Positions 7,477 to 46,976 of a stretch of DNA of 50,732 bases are shown here, piece after piece. The notes under the pieces were generated by a model, which had not been told where the DNA came from, ran no database searches, and saw only the letters and a program-made list of their open reading frames with translations. A program made the position numbers and the translations under genes. The stretch lies in sequence record NC_049819.1, one strand, 5' to 3'. The DNA comes from Escherichia phage atuna. Within the stretch, counting starts at the first letter, position 1, and each line of letters begins with the position of its first letter.

Positions 7477-9687
7477 ATGGCGATTTACAGACAAGGCCAA
7501 GCGTCTATGGACGCTCAAGGTTATGTAACTGGTTACGACACAAAATGGCGCGAGCAATTAACATTGATTCGCCCAGGTGCAACTATTTTCTTTCTTACTC
7601 AACCTTTGCAAGCTGCCGTGATCACAGAGGTGATTAGCGATACAAGCATTCGCGCAATTACTACTGGCGGCGCGGTAGTCCAGAAGACAAATTACCTGAT
7701 CTTGCTTCATGACTCGTTAACGGTTGACGGGCTTGCGCAGGATGTAGCGGAAACTTTGCGTTATTACCAGAGCAAGGAAACAGAAATTGCAGAAGCAATA
7801 GAGTTTTTTAAAGATTTTGATTTGGATGGCTTAAAGGATCTGGTGAATCAAGTTAAGGAATCTGCGCAACAAGTAGCAACAGATCGCGCAGCCACTGAAC
7901 AATTAAAAAATGACACTCAACAGATAAAGGATTCTGCTGTTGCTGAAACAAACCAGATTAAAGCAGACACTGACGCGATCAAAACTCAAACGCAACAGAT
8001 TAAAGATTCAGCTGTAACCGAAACTGAAGCCATTAAACAAGAGGCTTTCGGTGCTCGCGATCAGGCTGAACTGGCGCGTGATGCTGCTGGAAATCATGCC
8101 GTTGATGCAAATAATGCAAAGGCTGGCGCTGAAACTGCGCGTGATGAAGCTCGCCAGTGGGCGCAACAGGTAAATCCTGAAAATCTATTGCATAAGGATC
8201 AGAACCTTAAAGATCTTTCTGACATTGATGAAGCTCGCAGTACTCTTAGCATTGATTCATTTTTTCAGGATTACGTGCATACTATCTTGTACTCTAGAAA
8301 TAGAGAATATAGGCTCGTTATCAGAAATGATGGTCTTCTTGTTTTCCAGAGGGATGTATCAGGGTCTGGGTCATTTGAAACTGTTCCTTTAGCTATTTCT
8401 TCTGGTGGCACTGGAGCTATTGACGCAAATGGCATCAGAAACAATATAGGACTTGGCGAAAAACATGCACCAAAGTTTTTGAGTCTTAATGTTGAAAACG
8501 AAACGGAAAATGCAACTACTGCAAACGCAGGTATATACCATTCAAAACTAAAGAATACACAAGGTGAAGATATTGGATCTTCTCAGTCTTATTTTGAAAC
8601 TCAAGTAGGCGTAGGAAAGCATACAATAGGCGTATTTCATAATGGGGCATCACAGTATTATCAGTTTAATGAAAATGGTGCTTTTTCAGGAGCGAAAAGC
8701 ATTTCCTTAGCTCCTGGGGCTGGTATTTATGTAGATGGGAATGAGCGAAATGCGTCGCAATTGTTTTCAATTCCAAGTCCACCAATCAACACATGGACTG
8801 GTGTAAGTCGTTACAACTGGTATGACGATTACGCTATCGCTGGTTTAATCAGAAGAGGAGATACACACGTTGAATCTTTTGGAATAGAATTGTATCAAGC
8901 AGGGATACAGTCCTATATGCACAAGTTTTACCCTGACGGCAAAACGCATTCTGCTCAATACACCGGAAGAACTCAACAAATGGGGTGGGACGATCCAAAT
9001 TATTGGGGTAATGCTCTTGTTTGGGGTGAGGTTGTAACCAATAATGATGGCGGCTGGAGTCCTGGGTTATCTTGGGCTACACAATCAACTGGTGGATACC
9101 CGATTCGTGCAACTTGGGGTCTTATCGCACAAGGTAATAATGCATGGCCACTTTGTTCTCTAAGGCTTCGTGGTGATGGTGGTTTTTTCTGCAATTTCCA
9201 GTTTAATCCGGCATCAAACGATATAACTACATGGTCATCAAGTGGAAATTTCATTTTCCAAAAGGCAGCTAACTCTGACAGGGATTTAAAGCACGATATA
9301 ATTTATACAGATGGAAAAGAAAGCTATGATCGCGTTATGCAGTGGCTGCCTACCATGTTTAAATACAATGGAAGCAACATCCAGCGATTCGGGATGATAG
9401 CTCAGGATCTGTTAAAAATAGATCCTGAATATGTAAAGCTAATACCTGGAGGGGACATTTTTGCAGATGTTATAGGCGTTAATGATGAAGGTGAAGAATA
9501 TGTGGATCGTCAGATTGTGGTTGACAAAGCAGATGATACACTAGCTCTTGACAATAACGTTATCATGGCTGATATGGCTTGCGCTATGGTCTACATGGGA
9601 AACAAAATTGAGAAAATGGAGAAAGAGATAGAGGATCTAAAAAAAGCGGTAGCGAAATTAATAAACAATCCAACAGATACAGAATAA
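7477..9687 (+). CDS. Tail fibre protein with C-terminal intramolecular chaperone (peptidase S74-like) domain
   Basis: ATG 7477 after AGGAGG; C-terminal [30 protein letters not shown]...[13 protein letters not shown] resembles self-cleaving chaperone domain of T5-type fibres; coiled-coil ending. Confidence 0.75.
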
Positions 9688-17197: not shown

Positions 17198-17674
17198 CTA
17201 CTTTCCGTGGTTTATGTGGAATTTGTTTAAAACTTCAATCTCTATCCTCTTTTCTGCCGCATCCTGAAATGAATCAAAGTAAAATTCATGCCTAACACCA
17301 TCAATCTTTGCTCTTGCAATCCATTTTCCGCGACTAAAGTTTACTCCAGTAATTCCCGTCTTGCTGTTCCTGTAAAGCGACTTATTCTTGTTGTTAACAC
17401 TCATTCTAACAAGTCTTAAGTTTGAAATATTGTCGTTCATTGTGTTGTGATCTATGTGATCAACTTGCATTCCATGCGGTATTTCTCCATTATGAATTTC
17501 CCAAACTATCCTGCTCCTGTAGTATCTTTCTCCATCAATTGATATTCTAACCCTTTCTCCACTCTTCTTGCTTTTGCTTACGCTTCCTGCCTCACTTCCT
17601 TTCTTTATCCTTCTTCCTACGTCTACAGCCCAAAATAACTTACCGTCATTATAATAAAAAATATCACGCCACAT
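17198..17674 (-). CDS. HNH homing endonuclease with AP2 DNA-binding domain
   Basis: HIDHNTMNDNISNLRLV (HNH) and GITGVNFSRGKWIARAKIDGVRHEFYFDSFQDAAEKR (AP2-like); ATG 17674 after AAGGAGGTG. Confidence 0.8.
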   Translation of the reverse strand: MWRDIFYYNDGKLFWAVDVGRRIKKGSEAGSVSKSKKSGERVRISIDGERYYRSRIVWEIHNGEIPHGMQVDHIDHNTMNDNISNLRLVRMSVNNKNKSLYRNSKTGITGVNFSRGKWIARAKIDGVRHEFYFDSFQDAAEKRIEIEVLNKFHINHGK

Positions 17675-19867: not shown

Positions 19868-20224
19868 TTACTGCATTGATGTAAATTGCTCCGTAAAAGT
19901 GGCTTTTACTTCCTGAACGGTTGGCGACAGTGGAGTAAGGCCGACGCTGCCGCTTTTCACCCTGAACAATCCAGGGCTTCCATCAGGCATGATCCACAAG
20001 AAAGGTTTTAGCCTGTGCTCATTCAGGAAATTGACAACATCTCTGTAGTCAAGCCCAACGTAAACAATGCTAAACTCTCGCCGGATTGTGTTAAAACCTC
20101 CAGATGCTACCTGTGTGTATCCGTTACCGAATGCAATCTCTCGATCGTTATTCGATGACGTCATGGCCCCGCCGCCATTCTGAACCTGCGTACACCACTT
20201 AAACTGATCCAGCTTCATTATCAA
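19868..20224 (-). CDS. Minor tail protein (lambda M-like)
   Basis: 118 aa, start overlaps tape-measure stop (ATGA). Confidence 0.55.
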   Translation of the reverse strand: MIMKLDQFKWCTQVQNGGGAMTSSNNDREIAFGNGYTQVASGGFNTIRREFSIVYVGLDYRDVVNFLNEHRLKPFLWIMPDGSPGLFRVKSGSVGLTPLSPTVQEVKATFTEQFTSMQ

Positions 20225-22902
20225 CCTCGCTTGCTCATAACAAATTCGTAAACCTCTCCGCCCTGCATACAGGAACGTTTAATCATATCAGTAAAGATCA
20301 TCTTAACGCCAGTTTCGATGCCCTTCGGATCGCTGCCGTTATTGATGCTAACATCAATCCCACCAATGTTAAATTGAGGTGCTCCACCAGTGACAGCGCC
20401 ACCGCCAGTATATCCGGAACTACCAACCGCGCCGCCGTTAGCATAGCCTCGCATCATGCGGTACAAGTTGCCTACCCCGATACGCTGCGTCGCCTCCTTC
20501 GTCATGACAAATTCACCTTTATGGACAATTCCGGCTGGCTCATACTTCCCGCCGTCGCCAGTGTATCCACCGCCAGCAAATCCGCCAATGTTCTTAAGCA
20601 AGCTCCCCATCGTCCAGGTTTGACCACCCATCAGGCCAGATAACGCATTAAAGACAACCATTTTCGTGATCATCTGAATAATCATTTTGATGATAGCCGT
20701 CGAGAAGTCTTTAAAGTTTGCCTTGCCAGTAGCGATAAAATTCGCTAATTGGTTTGTAAGGCCGTTTAACGCCTCGCTTGCGATCTGCTGAACATTGCCA
20801 TAGGCATTGTTTGCATCTTCCGCGAATAGCTCCCATGCGTTTTTTGCTCCTGCCAACCAGTTGCCTTGAACCTCATCCTGTGTCTGATAATACTGCTTAA
20901 GTTTCGCCTCCATTTGCTGAAAAACTTCATCGCTAACGCTTCCTCCTTGCGCCTCGTAGTCGGTGCGCAGCTTGCGTAACTCTAGCTCACGCTCGATCTG
21001 CTTTTCAGTGTAGCCAAGTTGCTTAAGGCCAAGCACATCAATAGCCGCCTGCGTTTCACGGATAAACTTAATGCTATCTTGCTCCAGCTTGTTTTTGCGC
21101 TCCTGCAAAACAATCTGATCCCCTAATTCAGCCTTTTGCCTTGCCATTTCAAGAACGGCTTTTTGCTCGTTTAGTAGCGCCTGTTCCGCTCCTGTCAATT
21201 TACGCTTGCTCTGCGCACCCTCCAGGATCTCGATCTGCTTTTCGATGCTCCATAAAGATTTACGCTGGCGAGAAATAACATCGTTAACAGTGCGATGCTC
21301 TTTAAGAGTTTCCAGTTGCGCTTTTAAAACGTACAACTCTTTATCAAGCTGCTCAGTAGGGCCGCGAACTATTCCACCTTTAGCCTCTTTCTTTTTCTGC
21401 TCCTGCTTCTTGATCTCCTCAAGCTCTTTGCGTCTGAACTCCACGTTTTCAGCCGCGCGCTTTTTCAGTTCTTCATCAGCCGAACGCGCCACGCCCTTCT
21501 GATCTTCAATGGCTTTGTTTAAAGCCTCCTGTGCTGCTCTCACTCTGTTCAAGGCAAGGTTTTCTTTGTCGATTCGCTCCGCTCGTTCAGCCATGTCCTT
21601 ATTCGCATCTTTTACGACCTTTCCAATGTCTTCATAAGTGTTAAGTGCAAACTTAAGCATAGGATTAACATAGCCAAGCTCTTTACCTAACAGGCCGCCG
21701 GACGGGGAAGCGTAATCACGCTTCGCTTTCAAAACTTCATACCACGAGTCGCCCAACTCAAGGACTTTGTTTTTGTGGTTTGCAATTTCGTTATTCAAGC
21801 TGACAAAGCTAGACGCGCCTTTGTACTCGTTGACTTTCTTTTTTGCATCATCATAAGTCATGCCAACGTCAACCAGTTTTTTAATCGCCTCGCTCGCGCC
21901 GTCTTTCGTGGTGATGTAAGCCTTTGCCAGATCTTCTGCGCTTTCGCCTGTCTTGTCGGAAAGCTCCTGGATTCCGGTAGCAATCTTTTCGGCAAAATCA
22001 CCAGTCAAGCCAGTTGTTTCCTGAACGGTTTTTTTAATTGCCTCAAACTCTGTCTGTGTTTTGTAGGCATTATATGCAGCAATTGCCAGCGTGCCGGAAA
22101 GCAAGCCAAAAGCCACGTTTACCGGATTCAGGAAAGATAGCAACGCTTTTAAAGCATTGGATGCGCCACCAAAAGAATCCTTAATCTGTCCGCCCTGCTG
22201 GATTGCGACCAGCCAAACAGGCATACCAGAAGCAAGTGAAGTCACCACGTCTGTGATCTGCATTGGCAATAGCTTCATTGCTTGATTGTATTGGCCTGTA
22301 GAAATCCCAAGTTTTTGAATCTGCTTTTCCTGCTCTTTCAGTCTTGCGATGTAAGGTGCTGCCTCCTGGCTAACTCCAAGCTGTGCCGCTTTCATTTCCA
22401 GTAATTCAGACTTGCTTTTTCCGGCTGCTTCTTCCTGCTCACGCAAAGCCTGGATGAATTTTTTAGCCTCTTCCGCTGCACGCGCTTTGTTCTTTGATTC
22501 CTCAAGCGCCGCGCGGCCTTCCTCTGTCATCGCTTTTTTGGTTGCGATCAGCTTGTTTTGCTGTGTCTCAAGAATTGCCCCAAGCTCAAAAAAAGTCTCA
22601 TCAGGAACAATACCCTTTTTCCATAGCGCATCAAGCTGTGTCGCTGCCTTTCGCAGCTTATCCATCTTTGACGCGGTGGGATCAATTGACTCCTGGATTT
22701 TCTTAAATTCTGCTTTCTGGCGCGCCAATTCTTCGGCAAACTGTTTAGCTTGCTGTCGCGCCACAACCTCAGAATCAACAAATTCATTAACGCTTTTTTT
22801 TGCGTCGTCGTTTGCCTTCTTGAATTGCTGCAATGATTTAACAGCATTATTGACCTGCGACACGTCAACGCCTAGCGTTAGGCCAGCGTATTTCTCAGCC
22901 AT
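20221..22902 (-). CDS. Tail tape measure protein
   Basis: 893 aa, long coiled-coil Ala/Glu/Lys-rich N-terminal two thirds, Gly-rich C-terminus; position. Confidence 0.8.
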   Translation of the reverse strand: MAEKYAGLTLGVDVSQVNNAVKSLQQFKKANDDAKKSVNEFVDSEVVARQQAKQFAEELARQKAEFKKIQESIDPTASKMDKLRKAATQLDALWKKGIVPDETFFELGAILETQQNKLIATKKAMTEEGRAALEESKNKARAAEEAKKFIQALREQEEAAGKSKSELLEMKAAQLGVSQEAAPYIARLKEQEKQIQKLGISTGQYNQAMKLLPMQITDVVTSLASGMPVWLVAIQQGGQIKDSFGGASNALKALLSFLNPVNVAFGLLSGTLAIAAYNAYKTQTEFEAIKKTVQETTGLTGDFAEKIATGIQELSDKTGESAEDLAKAYITTKDGASEAIKKLVDVGMTYDDAKKKVNEYKGASSFVSLNNEIANHKNKVLELGDSWYEVLKAKRDYASPSGGLLGKELGYVNPMLKFALNTYEDIGKVVKDANKDMAERAERIDKENLALNRVRAAQEALNKAIEDQKGVARSADEELKKRAAENVEFRRKELEEIKKQEQKKKEAKGGIVRGPTEQLDKELYVLKAQLETLKEHRTVNDVISRQRKSLWSIEKQIEILEGAQSKRKLTGAEQALLNEQKAVLEMARQKAELGDQIVLQERKNKLEQDSIKFIRETQAAIDVLGLKQLGYTEKQIERELELRKLRTDYEAQGGSVSDEVFQQMEAKLKQYYQTQDEVQGNWLAGAKNAWELFAEDANNAYGNVQQIASEALNGLTNQLANFIATGKANFKDFSTAIIKMIIQMITKMVVFNALSGLMGGQTWTMGSLLKNIGGFAGGGYTGDGGKYEPAGIVHKGEFVMTKEATQRIGVGNLYRMMRGYANGGAVGSSGYTGGGAVTGGAPQFNIGGIDVSINNGSDPKGIETGVKMIFTDMIKRSCMQGGEVYEFVMSKRG

Positions 22903-22941
22903 TTTAAAACCTCCAGATATTAAAAAAGCGCCTTGCGGCGC

Positions 22942-23268
22942 TTATGTTTTGTTTGAATGAATCATTTCTAGCGCCTTTTGTTCCATGATGCGCAAATCAT
23001 TTAGCGCCATCTCCCGATCCTCAATCTTGTAAATGTCAAAAAGCATAGGCAAAACGTTATAGTCGAACCCATACACACTGCCGCTAGTCGATCTCCATTG
23101 CGTCTGCATAGCGCAAAACAGATCCCAAGATTGAAACATTGATTCATCAAAAATTACCTCCGGCGGCTCCTCCCCTTCGTAGTCTGAACGGGATAGGCCG
23201 ACGGCCTCTAATTGTGCGTCAGTTGGCGGCTTGAGGTAAAACAGGTAAACCGCCCGCTTTAGTTTTTT
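22942..23268 (-). CDS. Tail assembly chaperone, -1 frameshift extension (T-like part of G-T fusion)
   Basis: Frame open from slippery A_AAA_AAC (23268-23262) to stop at 22942 in the -1 frame relative to G gene; no SD/ATG of its own at the 5' end. Confidence 0.5.
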   Translation of the reverse strand, partial: KKLKRAVYLFYLKPPTDAQLEAVGLSRSDYEGEEPPEVIFDESMFQSWDLFCAMQTQWRSTSGSVYGFDYNVLPMLFDIYKIEDREMALNDLRIMEQKALEMIHSNKT

Positions 23269-23576
23269 ACCCGCTGCCCCGCAAGTGCTTTCATATAATG
23301 ACCAGTCAGCGATAATGACGCAGAAGGGTAATAATCCAGCAATTTAGCAACGTTTTCCTCGTTAAATTCATCTTCCAGATCCCAACCGGAAGCAAGGAAG
23401 GTGATCATTTCTACGTCGCTCATCGGCTTTTCTGCCGTGTATCGTTCGTGAATCTCGCTTGCCTTCTTGTGGCGCACGGTAAAAACAATAACTTGCTCAT
23501 CACCATTTGGAAGCACAAAAGAAACAGGCAGCTTAAAATCAGGCAGTGGCCCTAACGTTAGCTTCATCTTTGCCAT
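23259..23576 (-). CDS. Tail assembly chaperone (lambda G-like)
   Basis: 105 aa, acidic; directly upstream of tape measure; ends 2 codons after slippery heptamer. Confidence 0.55.
   Translation of the reverse strand: MAKMKLTLGPLPDFKLPVSFVLPNGDEQVIVFTVRHKKASEIHERYTAEKPMSDVEMITFLASGWDLEDEFNEENVAKLLDYYPSASLSLTGHYMKALAGQRVKN
23262..23268 (-). other. Programmed -1 ribosomal frameshift slippery heptamer A_AAA_AAC
   Basis: Heptamer in G frame as gtA AAA AAC immediately before stop; -1 frame continues open into downstream ORF. Confidence 0.55.
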
Positions 23577-23609: not shown

Positions 23610-23675
23610 GTGGAATTGATTTATTTGATAGATTGATTTTACAGGAATGAAAAAAGGGGCGCAACGCCCCTTGTT

Positions 23676-24338
23676 TTAATTGATGTCGGAAGATAAGAAC
23701 GTAAATCTACCTTTCAGAGATACGGAAAGGGAAACAGTTTCCATTTCGTTCATAGTGGTTTGCGGAATGTCATTAAAGGACAATACGCCAGCCCAGCAAC
23801 GCATCTCTTTAGCTTTCGGAACATACATACGTAAAGCGGTTACGTCGCCGGATTCCTCAGCCTCGCGTAAGATCGGATAAATCGGATTATCATATTCATG
23901 CGCGAAAGTGTAGGTAAGAGAAACCGCGCTCTTGTAGGTCGGTAACTGCTGCTCCTGGTCATCAGCCAAACACTGATAAGTGTAATACTGTTGCTCGCCT
24001 CCGTCCTGCGCAAGATCCTGTACGCAAGGAATCTCTACCCATGATTTTACTTCTCGGAAGGTTGCTGTATTAGAACCAGCCGGAAACACGTTCTGATCGG
24101 TTGTGTCTACACCTTCAAGGGTAACACTTTCATTGTCGGTAACGGCCTTAACGCGCAACACGCGGCTAACCAACTTACCCCACGAAGACGTTTCAATCAG
24201 AACATAAGCACCCTTCTTGATATTTTTTGTGTCGGTCGCTGTAAATACAGGCTCATTAGCGTTAGTGATAGCCGTAGCCTGAATCGGATCGCCCATATTA
24301 ACGCCGATGAAAATTTGAGAACCATTAGGCAAGTGCAT
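23676..24338 (-). CDS. Major tail protein
   Basis: 220 aa, position upstream of G/T chaperones. Confidence 0.6.
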   Translation of the reverse strand: MHLPNGSQIFIGVNMGDPIQATAITNANEPVFTATDTKNIKKGAYVLIETSSWGKLVSRVLRVKAVTDNESVTLEGVDTTDQNVFPAGSNTATFREVKSWVEIPCVQDLAQDGGEQQYYTYQCLADDQEQQLPTYKSAVSLTYTFAHEYDNPIYPILREAEESGDVTALRMYVPKAKEMRCWAGVLSFNDIPQTTMNEMETVSLSVSLKGRFTFLSSDIN

Positions 24339-24340
24339 GA

Positions 24341-24742
24341 TTATTCCTCCTTTGTATCAAGCCTAACACTGAAACGGATCGGCAAGAACCAACCTGTTTC
24401 ACTTTTTAGTAATGTGTGGACGTTTGCCCCCTCGCTAATATAGCCAGTTTCAATCATTCTACCATCATAGAAAAATCTCGCAATCTCTTTAGCCAGCAAA
24501 CGCGCTTTATCAGTGCCACCGCCAGGAGGAATGACAATCCCAACCTGAACCAAACCGATATAAGAAACACATTTTCTATCAAGAGATATGCGATCCGTGT
24601 CTGCTTCCATGTAGTTAAATTTTAACCACATAGAACCATCTCCAGGCGGCACAAAATCAACGTTTTCATAGGCTATCTTAAATCGTGATTCATATTCAGC
24701 CGCCAGCGCCTTTCTTGCCGCCAACATTAAATCATAGTGCAT
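24341..24742 (-). CDS. Tail completion / tail terminator protein (positional)
   Basis: 133-aa ORF between neck genes and major tail gene. Confidence 0.35.
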   Translation of the reverse strand: MHYDLMLAARKALAAEYESRFKIAYENVDFVPPGDGSMWLKFNYMEADTDRISLDRKCVSYIGLVQVGIVIPPGGGTDKARLLAKEIARFFYDGRMIETGYISEGANVHTLLKSETGWFLPIRFSVRLDTKEE

Positions 24743-46034: not shown

Positions 46035-46255
46035 GTCAGGACGGTTTTTTTGAGCGCCTTCAAATGGCAGAAGATGCCGGACTAAATAAAGAGGCGGCGC
46101 TTGAAGTGGCATATAAAATTAAGACTCTTGATGAGGCTTTAGGTGATATGGATATGGATCTTGAATCAAGCGCAATATTTGCAGATCCCACTATGATTGT
46201 TAATGATTGTGGATGCGATTTCGATCCTAGTTGTCCGCGCTGTTTTCCGTTTTGA
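46031..46255 (+). CDS. Small acidic protein (74 aa)
   Basis: Asp/Glu-rich, C-terminal Cys cluster CGCDFDPSCPRC; coupled to downstream methyltransferase-like gene. Confidence 0.45.
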   Translation: MSQDGFFERLQMAEDAGLNKEAALEVAYKIKTLDEALGDMDMDLESSAIFADPTMIVNDCGCDFDPSCPRCFPF

Positions 46256-46265
46256 GGTAATGACG

Positions 46266-46976
46266 ATGTATAAAGGTTTAATATTCTCCCTATTTGATGG
46301 ATCTGGTAAAGCCGTTAAAGATTGGGCTGATAATGGATATAAGTGCATTTGCTTTAATGCTGACGGTGGCGATCACGGTGATTACCAGTCAGTGCGCATA
46401 CAGCATGAGAATATCGAATACGTTAACGTCTGGATTGATGAAAGATTTTACCACCGCGCGCGCTGGGAGGAATGGGGCATTCCTGACTTTATTATGGCAT
46501 TTCCGCCGTGCACCGACCTTGCAAATAGCGGATCTCGCCATTGGGCCAAAAAACGCCTTGAGAATCCATCGTTCCAGGATGAGGCCGCCGACACTTGCAG
46601 AATCGCGGCTGATATAGCTGATTATTTCGGTGTTCCTTACATGATCGAAAATCCGGTTGGCAAGTTGTCAACGTTATGGCGAAAGCCTGATTATACGTTC
46701 CATCCGTGCGATTACGCTGGCTATCTGCCGGAAGATGATAAACATCCCGACTTCCCTGATATTATTCCGGCACGGGATCGCTATTTTAAGAAAACGTGCC
46801 TCTGGACTGGCAACGGCTTTGTTATTCCTCCTCGCGCTTTAATCCTGCCGAAAGAGGAAGACAAAGATAATCCAGGCTGGGCCAAAACTGGCGGTAAGTC
46901 ATCGCGCACAAAGATGATCCGCTCCCTCACTCCGCGCGGCTTTGCTCGCGCCGTCTTTGAGTCAAACTCAAAATAG
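46266..46976 (+). CDS. C5-cytosine methyltransferase-like protein (compact, about 237 aa)
   Basis: Motif I IFSLFDGSG, motif IV-like FPPC (catalytic Cys), motif VI-like ENPVG; no obvious large target-recognition domain; start ATG 46266 chosen for SD spacing. Confidence 0.55.
   Translation: MYKGLIFSLFDGSGKAVKDWADNGYKCICFNADGGDHGDYQSVRIQHENIEYVNVWIDERFYHRARWEEWGIPDFIMAFPPCTDLANSGSRHWAKKRLENPSFQDEAADTCRIAADIADYFGVPYMIENPVGKLSTLWRKPDYTFHPCDYAGYLPEDDKHPDFPDIIPARDRYFKKTCLWTGNGFVIPPRALILPKEEDKDNPGWAKTGGKSSRTKMIRSLTPRGFARAVFESNSK

What the first reader, a model, noticed from the sequence alone, without database searches (positions are those of the whole stretch)
22942..23576. Programmed -1 frameshift site (A_AAA_AAC) joining G-like and T-like tail chaperone ORFs
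The G-like ORF ends two codons after the slippery heptamer at 23268-23262 on the minus strand. The -1 frame is open from the heptamer through the downstream ORF to 22942, whose own first ATG lacks an SD. This matches the conserved G/GT expression strategy of long-tailed phages.
Basis: partly seen in the sequence, partly recalled or inferred. Interest (0 to 1): 0.4.

Follow-up and report, generated by a model that had tools for sequence, protein, structure and literature searches.

The report
Tail chaperone G/GT frameshift site
This is the standard -1 ribosomal frameshift site that lets a T1-like coliphage make a short and a long tail assembly chaperone from one message; it is real and strongly conserved, but it is an ordinary, already described feature.

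Summary
On the minus strand a 105-aa ORF (23576..23259, Pfam Phage_TAC_4) ends GTA AAA AAC TAA. This puts the heptamer A_AAA_AAC (23268..23262) in the correct X_XXY_YYZ phase. The -1 frame is open from the heptamer to 22942 and encodes a DUF1799/TfmB-like domain that starts 57 nt upstream of the only ATG (23139).

The window is a Warwickvirus (Drexlerviridae, T1-like). The pair sits between the tail tube and tape measure genes, as lambda G/T does.

In 101 related loci a slippery motif always lies in the last 1-3 codons of G: A_AAA_AAC in 63, the rest A_AAA_G, A_AAG or G_GGA_AAC. The -1 frame stays open about 310-320 nt in 99 of them. The 120-nt "gap" evolves as coding sequence only in the -1 frame: 1157 synonymous to 1004 nonsynonymous changes, against 144/1953 and 200/1862, with 0 stops against 217 and 327.

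The orthologous site is annotated as a joined CDS in phage Stevie and is described in papers on T1-like phages.

A predicted downstream hairpin is not supported by covariation.

Verdict: correct, already known, low interest. The closest GenBank records do not annotate the fusion.

The parts
23259..23576 (-). G-like tail assembly (tape measure) chaperone ORF, 105 aa. It is the product of standard 0-frame decoding.
   Evidence: ORF list and translation. Pfam PF08748 Phage_TAC_4, E 5.2e-31, 107.9 bits against a cutoff of 21.1, covering residues 1-105. AAGGAG lies 8 nt upstream of the ATG.
23262..23268 (-). Slippery heptamer A_AAA_AAC. The 0-frame codons are gtA AAA AAC and the stop TAA (23261-23259) follows directly.
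   Evidence: Sequence read. Identical heptamer plus adjacent stop in 63 of 101 related loci. The codon before it changes amino acid (GTA, GCA, GAA) but always keeps the final A. A -1-frame TGA abuts the heptamer in Maverick, L014.
22942..23262 (-). -1-frame T-like extension. It is decoded from the re-read C at 23262 (CTA = Leu) through to TAA at 22944-22942, 106 aa. Added to G it gives a 211-aa GT fusion.
   Evidence: The -1 frame is open here. phrog_17368 matches the fusion at 1-211 of 213 positions, E 2.5e-99. The protein is conserved from the junction onward in 86 distinct sequences.
22960..23196 (-). DUF1799 (TfmB-like) domain in the -1 frame. It begins 57 nt upstream of the only ATG (23139).
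   Evidence: Pfam PF08809, E 1.6e-12, 47.9 bits against a cutoff of 26, residues 25-103 of the segment that starts at 23268. phrog_680 matches from residue 11.
23140..23258 (-). The 'gap' between the G stop and the first ATG of the T ORF. It is coding in the -1 frame only and has no start codon of its own.
   Evidence: Synonymous/nonsynonymous codon differences are 1157/1004 in the -1 frame, 144/1953 in the 0 frame and 200/1862 in the +1 frame. Stops number 0, 217 and 327. Third-position divergence is 0.53 against 0.27 and 0.25 for positions 1 and 2.
23225..23254 (-). Candidate downstream hairpin, GGCGGUUU-N14-AAGCCGCC, starting 7 nt after the heptamer. It is not established as a stimulator.
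   Evidence: It is in the MFE fold at -13.2 kcal/mol but z is only -1.3. In 30 relatives 87% of cells pair, but only 2 pairs change on both sides and 104 of 500 shuffles do as well. Several lineages break it with synonymous changes. Both arms encode conserved R-A-V and K-P-P.
23654..23672 (-). Intrinsic-terminator-like hairpin plus T run, between the tail tube gene and G.
   Evidence: The equivalent site is annotated as a terminator in T1 and vB_Eco_Sip.
22926..22943 (-). Intrinsic-terminator-like hairpin plus T run at the end of T, before the tape measure gene (start 22902).
   Evidence: The equivalent site is annotated as a terminator in T1 and vB_Eco_Sip.

Best explanation
This is a programmed -1 ribosomal frameshift of the lambda G/GT type in the tape measure chaperone genes of a T1-like phage (Warwickvirus, Drexlerviridae).

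Most ribosomes translate the 105-aa G-like chaperone and terminate at TAA (23261-23259). A minority slip back one nucleotide on A_AAA_AAC (23268-23262). In that slip the P-site tRNA-Lys re-pairs AAA to AAA and the A-site tRNA-Asn re-pairs AAC to AAA. A single tRNA-Asn slip while the adjacent stop codon waits in the A site is also possible. The ribosome then reads CUA and continues in the -1 frame to 22942. The result is a 211-aa GT fusion with junction ...GQRVKN-LKRAVYL....

By analogy with lambda, G and the G part of GT coat the tape measure protein, and the T domain (DUF1799) recruits the tail tube protein. On that analogy the fixed low shift rate would set the G:GT ratio.

Shown here: the sequence anatomy, the conservation of the site, coding in the -1 frame across the junction, the lack of an independent start, and the gene order.

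Inferred: that slippage actually occurs, its rate, the tRNA details, and the chaperone roles.
For: - Anatomy and phase of the heptamer, and the open -1 frame.
- Pfam Phage_TAC_4 on G. DUF1799 on the -1 segment starts 19 residues before the ATG.
- phrog_17368 covers the conceptual fusion end to end, E 2.5e-99.
- tblastn of the fusion finds 1123 phage records. Of these 1081 cover at least 80% of it, and nearly all of the 60 records listed match as two pieces in two frames.
- In 101 loci the last 1-3 codons of G always hold a slippery motif: A_AAA_AAC 63, A_AAA_G 26, A_AAG 8, G_GGA_AAC 2. Two more carry an A5 variant. In 99 of 101 the -1 frame stays open 308-323 nt.
- The base before AAA AAC stays A while the amino acid changes among V, A and E. 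This points to selection on the nucleotides.
- In Maverick the -1 frame opens only at the heptamer.
- The gap region shows coding-type substitutions and no stops only in the -1 frame.
- Gene order is tail terminator, tube, G, T, TMP, M-like, as in lambda U-V-G-T-H.
- The ortholog in Stevie is annotated as a 2-piece join at the identical GTA AAA AAC TAA. [quoted passage not shown] See also PMC8104045 and PMC3496638.
- The lambda mechanism is reviewed in PMC5009743.
- X_XXZ_ZZN heptamers and Z_ZZN tetramers are the accepted -1 motifs in E. coli, and an IS cluster using A_AAA_AAC is called a proven case with no established stimulator (PMC4066793).
Against: - There is no experimental evidence for this phage or genus.
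- AAC is a 'heterogeneous' ZZN codon, which is expected to shift less well than AAG or AAA in E. coli (PMC4066793). That is compatible with a low rate but means the rate is unknown.
- No stimulatory element could be established. The hairpin has z -1.3 and non-significant covariation. Synonymous-site conservation around the site dips only modestly, to 0.32-0.35 against a mean of 0.46, and similar dips occur elsewhere.
- None of the eight close or T1-type GenBank records inspected annotates a join.
- There is no detectable sequence similarity to lambda G or T, so the functional roles rest on position and on family names.
Confidence: 0.93

Rival explanations
1. G and T are two independent genes. 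T is translated on its own from ATG 23139 as a 65-aa protein, as most GenBank records of relatives annotate it, and the heptamer is coincidental.
For: Relatives are annotated this way. An ATG exists at 23139, and a GGAGG lies upstream at 23161-23157.
Against: - The GGAGG is 17 nt from the ATG.
- The Met is not conserved. Webervirus has Thr there and others lack it.
- The first in-frame start codon falls at very different places in relatives: +119, +47, +62, -82 and others.
- The Pfam and PHROG domains start 19-33 residues upstream of the ATG.
- The 120 nt upstream of the ATG are under purifying selection as -1-frame codons, with 0 stops in 81 sequences.
Confidence: 0.03
2. The fusion is made by transcriptional slippage. 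RNA polymerase would add or drop an A in the A6 run, rather than the ribosome slipping.
For: The site contains a homopolymeric A6 run, and A7 in Maverick.
Against: From established knowledge, efficient transcriptional slippage in E. coli needs runs of about 8-9 or more A or T. Six is short. Orthologous sites in other lineages have no homopolymer run (G_GGA_AAC, CAA_AAG, GCA_AAG_G) yet keep the same two-frame architecture. This fits tRNA re-pairing rules, not polymerase stuttering. To reach the T frame the mRNA would have to gain one A.
Confidence: 0.03
3. The two frames are an artefact, such as a sequencing indel in the A run, or a decaying gene. The native gene would be a single in-frame GT ORF or a pseudogene.
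For: Two IMG/VR genomes differ in A-run length, A5 instead of A6. This shows that such errors or variants occur at this homopolymer.
Against: The same frame offset is found in 99 of 101 loci and in about 1100 GenBank phage genomes from independent laboratories and platforms. Both parts are under purifying selection. The two A5 variants do not produce an in-frame fusion either; they put T in the +1 frame.
Confidence: 0.01

Closest known systems
Bacteriophage lambda G / GT tail assembly chaperones (Levin, Hendrix and Casjens 1993; Xu, Hendrix and Duda 2004, 2013, 2014; reviewed in PMC5009743)
   Same: The genes lie between the tail tube and tape measure genes. The downstream ORF is in the -1 frame with no start of its own. 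A slippery heptamer sits near the end of G. Two products share an N-terminus.
   Different: The heptamer is A_AAA_AAC rather than G_GGA_AAG. The 0-frame stop directly follows the heptamer here, whereas in lambda it is 5 codons later. The proteins are smaller: 105 and 211 aa against 140 aa for lambda G plus a 144-aa T extension. There is no detectable sequence similarity (hhalign probability 0.1% and 0.7%); the Pfam families are PF08748 and PF08809.
Tape measure chaperones of T1-like phages: T1 gp40/gp39, TLS TfmA/TfmB, Stevie CPT_Stevie15/16, U136B
   Same: These are orthologous proteins, 56-71% identical in G. They have the identical GTA/GCA AAA AAC TAA site. Stevie annotates the 2-piece join. 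The literature notes the conserved frameshift (PMC4319613, PMC8104045).
   Different: Only the genus differs (Warwickvirus). The nearest Warwickvirus records (MikeNSara, FritzSarasin, Sip, tunzivis) leave the fusion unannotated, and one omits T altogether.
IS-element and dnaX -1 frameshift sites in E. coli (A_AAA_AAG or A_AAA_AAC heptamers; PMC4066793)
   Same: They use the same class of heptamer and the same tRNA-Lys-based slippage in the same host. An IS cluster using A_AAA_AAC is a proven case with no established stimulator.
   Different: dnaX and IS911 use an upstream SD-like element plus a 3' hairpin or pseudoknot for high efficiency. No such stimulator could be validated here.

Membership tests
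G/GT-type tail assembly chaperone pair expressed by -1 PRF (Xu et al. 2004 definition) | The two ORFs lie between the major tail (tube) gene and the tape measure gene. | tested here: met
   Phage_tail_3 at 24338..23676, then G, then T, then TMP_2/Tape_meas_lam_C at 22902..20221.
G/GT-type tail assembly chaperone pair expressed by -1 PRF (Xu et al. 2004 definition) | The downstream ORF overlaps the end of the upstream ORF in the -1 frame. | tested here: met
   The -1 frame is open from 85 nt before the end of G to 22942.
G/GT-type tail assembly chaperone pair expressed by -1 PRF (Xu et al. 2004 definition) | A canonical slippery sequence lies in the correct phase inside the overlap. | tested here: met
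   A_AAA_AAC at 23268-23262, with 0-frame codons gtA AAA AAC.
G/GT-type tail assembly chaperone pair expressed by -1 PRF (Xu et al. 2004 definition) | The slip site and the two-frame arrangement are conserved in relatives. | tested here: met
   101 loci and 1123 GenBank records.
G/GT-type tail assembly chaperone pair expressed by -1 PRF (Xu et al. 2004 definition) | The downstream part has no independent initiation, and coding continues across the junction. | tested here: met
   No start codon between the frame opening and 23139. The SD-like motif is 17 nt away. Codon-type selection acts in the gap. The domain starts upstream of the ATG.
G/GT-type tail assembly chaperone pair expressed by -1 PRF (Xu et al. 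2004 definition) | The fusion protein is made at a low fixed ratio and is required for tail assembly. | not testable with these tools
   This needs a western blot or mass spectrometry of infected cells, plus genetics.
Pfam PF08748 Phage_TAC_4 | hmmscan score above the gathering threshold over the full profile. | tested here: met
   107.9 bits against 21.1, profile positions 1-124 of 124.
Pfam PF08809 DUF1799 (TfmB-like T domain) | hmmscan score above the gathering threshold. | tested here: met
   47.9 bits against 26, profile positions 3-80 of 80, on the -1-frame segment.
Lambda gpG / gpT sequence families | Detectable sequence or profile similarity to lambda G and to lambda T. | tested here: not met
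   hhalign probability 0.1% for G and 0.7% for T. A fold comparison was not possible because the single-sequence AF2 model has pLDDT 43.6.
Stimulated bacterial -1 PRF (dnaX / IS911 / IS3 type) | A 3' stem-loop or pseudoknot 5-8 nt after the heptamer, supported by conservation or covariation. | tested here: inconclusive
   An 8-bp hairpin lies 7 nt downstream and is 87% paired in 30 relatives. Covariation is not above the shuffles and several lineages break the hairpin.
Stimulated bacterial -1 PRF (dnaX / IS911 / IS3 type) | An upstream SD-like element about 10-14 nt before the site. | not tested
   Only a GGGG from the conserved Gly codon, 8 nt upstream, was noted by eye. Synonymous-site variability upstream of the site is not reduced.
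Transcriptional slippage sites | A homopolymer run long enough for RNA polymerase slippage (about 8-9 or more A or T), conserved as a run. | tested here: not met
   The run is A6 here. Orthologous sites in other lineages have no run: G_GGA_AAC and CAA_AAG.

The most novel reading that the evidence does not exclude
The T1-type site may differ mechanistically from lambda's stimulator-independent site. The 0-frame stop codon abutting the heptamer is conserved in all 63 A_AAA_AAC loci. Its one variant, TAA to TGA, is also synonymous in the T frame (CTA to CTG). This stop, and/or the GGCGG...CCGCC hairpin 7 nt downstream, could act as the pause element that sets the G:GT ratio. Lineage-specific swaps of the motif (heptamer to the A_AAA_G or A_AAG_G tetramer in Webervirus and Rogunavirinae) could retune that ratio.
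Probability: 0.2. Interest if true: 0.3.

Novelty: already known. Interest (0 to 1): 0.1.

Why it matters
The main value is for annotation. The closest public genomes (Warwickvirus MikeNSara, FritzSarasin, Sip, tunzivis), and even T1 and lambda RefSeq, list G and T as separate or missing CDSs. The 211-aa GT product should therefore be added with a ribosomal_slippage join at 23262. The site adds no new biology: the G/GT frameshift is conserved across long-tailed phages and has already been noted for T1-like phages. A minor comparative point is that the slip motif changes between Drexlerviridae lineages while its position stays fixed. That could be used to study how the chaperone ratio is tuned.

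Tried and rejected
1. Downstream hairpin as stimulator. It is predicted, but z is -1.3 and covariation is not above the shuffles. I keep it only as a candidate.

2. Synonymous-site conservation scan along GT, to reveal a hidden RNA element. There is only a modest dip at the site, comparable to dips elsewhere.

3. Fold comparison of G. The single-sequence AlphaFold2 model has pLDDT 43.6 and is unusable.

4. The search for homologous proteins with the fusion returned only 3 T-like hits and no full-length fusion entries, so it was uninformative.

5. PDB sequence search: no relative found.

6. hhalign against lambda G and T: no similarity.

7. Other heptamer plus long -1 extension candidates in the window. 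These are spurious ORFs nested in real genes (for example 46294..46617 inside 46197..46976) or ordinary neighbouring genes.

8. I looked for join annotations in eight close or T1-type records and found none. One was found in Stevie.

Full report
**What the window is.** A 1.2-kb query around the finding matches 99 phage records. The best matches are at 99% identity to Escherichia phages MikeNSara, vB_Eco_mar001J1 and FritzSarasin. These belong to Warwickvirus, Tempevirinae, Drexlerviridae, which are T1-like siphophages.

**The observation.** The minus strand reads as follows.
- An AAGGAG lies 8 nt before ATG 23576.
- A 105-aa ORF follows, ending ...CAG CGG GTA AAA AAC TAA (stop at 23261-23259).
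- The heptamer A_AAA_AAC occupies 23268-23262 in exact X_XXY_YYZ phase.
- The stop follows it directly.
- Translating from 23268 in the -1 frame gives 108 codons with no stop until TAA at 22944-22942. This frame is in phase with the ATG at 23139.
- It opens 85 nt before the end of G and has no ATG, GTG or TTG before 23139.
- The nearest SD-like motif, GGAGGT at 23161-23156, is 17 nt from that ATG.

In-frame canonical heptamers occur at 0.4% of codons in this window's ORFs. About 0.01 would be expected by chance in the last three codons of a given gene.

**What the proteins are.**
- G matches Pfam Phage_TAC_4 over its full length (E 5e-31).
- The -1 segment matches DUF1799 from its residue 25, which is 19 residues (57 nt) upstream of the ATG.
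- In PHROGs, a 213-position profile (phrog_17368) matches the conceptual fusion from 1 to 211 with E 2.5e-99. phrog_680 matches the -1 segment from residue 11.
- The flanking genes are a tail terminator (24742..24341), a tail tube protein (Phage_tail_3, 24338..23676), a tape measure protein (TMP_2 plus Tape_meas_lam_C, 22902..20221) and an M-like minor tail protein.
- This is the same order as lambda U-V-G-T-H.

**Comparative test of the site.** tblastn with the fusion finds 1123 phage records. Of these, 1081 cover at least 80% of it, and nearly all of the 60 records listed match as two pieces in two frames, down to about 27% identity. I collected 20 GenBank loci from different genera and 80 IMG/VR loci and analysed the end of G in each.

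| Motif at the end of G | Loci | Lineages |
|---|---|---|
| [GTA/GCA/GAA] AAA AAC followed directly by TAA or TGA | 63 | Tempevirinae, Tunavirinae including T1, Guelphvirus, Eclunavirus, Dhillonvirus |
| GCA AAA GTY/GCC TAA | 26 | Webervirus |
| GCA AAG GTC TAA | 6 | Rogunavirinae |
| CAA AAG | 2 | NewHawk, Taid |
| G_GGA_AAC | 2 | Ralstonia and Pseudomonas phages |
| A5 instead of A6 | 2 | IMG/VR genomes L027 and L075 |

- A heptamer or tetramer of the accepted -1 classes (PMC4066793) therefore always sits within the last 1-3 codons.
- In 99 of 101 loci the -1 frame then runs 308-323 nt.
- The codon before AAA AAC changes its amino acid (Val, Ala, Glu) but never its final A. This is a nucleotide-level constraint.
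- In Maverick the -1 frame has a TGA immediately before the heptamer, so the shift can only occur on the heptamer.
- The first possible start codon in the -1 frame lies at very different positions in different lineages. The Met at 23139 is not conserved.

**Is the gap translated?** I used a codon alignment of 81 distinct Drexlerviridae sequences covering the stretch between the heptamer and the ATG (window 23262..23140) and compared each with the window.

| Frame | Synonymous / nonsynonymous codon differences | Stops |
|---|---|---|
| -1 frame | 1157 / 1004 | 0 |
| 0 frame | 144 / 1953 | 217 |
| +1 frame | 200 / 1862 | 327 |

Pairwise divergence by codon position is 0.27, 0.25 and 0.53. The stretch is therefore a protein-coding sequence that has no initiation codon of its own. 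The only supply of ribosomes in that frame is a shift out of G.

**Mechanism.** The best-supported model is the classic one. With tRNA-Lys on AAA in the P site and tRNA-Asn on AAC in the A site, both re-pair one base back on AAA AAA. Alternatively tRNA-Asn slips alone while the adjacent stop waits in the A site. Decoding resumes at CUA. The fusion is then G(1-105) plus LKRAVYL...NKT, 211 aa in total. According to the rules in PMC4066793, AAC is a less slippery A-site codon than AAG or AAA. That fits a low-level shift such as lambda's 30:1 ratio (PMC5009743), but the rate here is unknown. The functional roles are inferred from lambda (PMC5009743): G and GT bind the tape measure protein, and the T domain recruits the tube protein.

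**Stimulators.** An 8-bp hairpin, GGCGGUUU-N14-AAGCCGCC (23254-23225), starts 7 nt after the heptamer and appears in the MFE fold. Its z-score is only -1.3.
- In 30 relatives 87% of cells pair.
- Only two pairs show double changes, and 104 of 500 shuffles do as well.
- Several lineages break the stem by synonymous changes.
- Both arms encode conserved R-A-V and K-P-P.
- Synonymous-site variability dips only modestly at the site.

I do not consider a stimulator established.

**Rivals.**
- Independent initiation of a 65-aa T is contradicted by the domain boundaries, the coding signature of the gap and the non-conserved start.
- Transcriptional slippage is unlikely on A6 and cannot explain orthologous sites that lack a run.
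- A sequencing artefact is excluded by the number of independent genomes.

**Comparison with known systems.** There is no sequence similarity to lambda G or T. A fold test failed for lack of a confident model. The pair therefore works like lambda G/GT but belongs to the PF08748/PF08809 families of T1-like phages (TfmA/TfmB).

The orthologous site is already annotated as a two-piece join in Citrobacter phage Stevie, with the identical GTA AAA AAC TAA. [quoted passage not shown] A 2026 preprint refers to the long and short TAC isoforms made by programmed frameshifting as common knowledge (10.64898/2026.01.04.697583).

The eight close or T1-type records I inspected, and lambda RefSeq as well, do not annotate the join. 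This is an annotation gap, not a novelty.

**Verdict.** The feature is already known and of low interest.

Noticed in passing
window 23672..23654 and 22943..22926 (minus strand): The G/T cassette is bracketed by two intrinsic-terminator-like hairpins with T runs. One lies between the tail tube gene and G. The other overlaps the T stop, just before the tape measure gene. The same sites are annotated as terminators in T1 and vB_Eco_Sip. This suggests stepwise attenuation of transcription from tube to chaperones to TMP.
   Followed up: partly
L027 (IMGVR_UViG_2974632794_000001) about 1215-1225; L075 (IMGVR_UViG_2974785742_000001) about 1215-1225: Two T1-like genomes carry GTAAAAACTAA (A5 instead of A6) at the shift site. 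This puts T in the +1 frame relative to G. These are most likely homopolymer sequencing errors, but this was not verified.
   Followed up: partly
L007, L020 and L077-L100 (Webervirus); L019 and L053-L059 (Rogunavirinae); L017 and L018: The slip motif differs by lineage while its position at the end of G is fixed. Webervirus has GCA_AAA_GTY_TAA, Rogunavirinae has GCA_AAG_GTC_TAA, and the Ralstonia and Pseudomonas phages have G_GGA_AAC. The first two are tetramer-type motifs with one sense codon before the stop.
   Followed up: partly
window 23146..23144 (minus strand): An ATG in the third frame lies 8 nt after GGAGGT (23161-23156). It heads only the tail of a 49-aa ORF (23150..23001, listed from a TTG start) inside the T coding region. 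This is probably chance, because the GGAGG encodes part of the conserved EGEEPPE stretch.
   Followed up: no
window 46294..46617 (+), 9639..9645 (+), 17231..17225 (-): Other in-frame X_XXY_YYZ heptamers with long -1 extensions turned up in the window-wide scan. The first lies in a spurious ORF nested in the real 259-aa gene 46197..46976. The other two were not examined further. The third probably reflects an ordinary downstream gene in the -1 frame.
   Followed up: partly
L102 (lambda NC_001416 9711..10549): The lambda RefSeq record itself lists G and T as separate CDSs without a ribosomal-slippage join. The absence of a join in phage records therefore says nothing about whether the frameshift exists.
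   Followed up: yes
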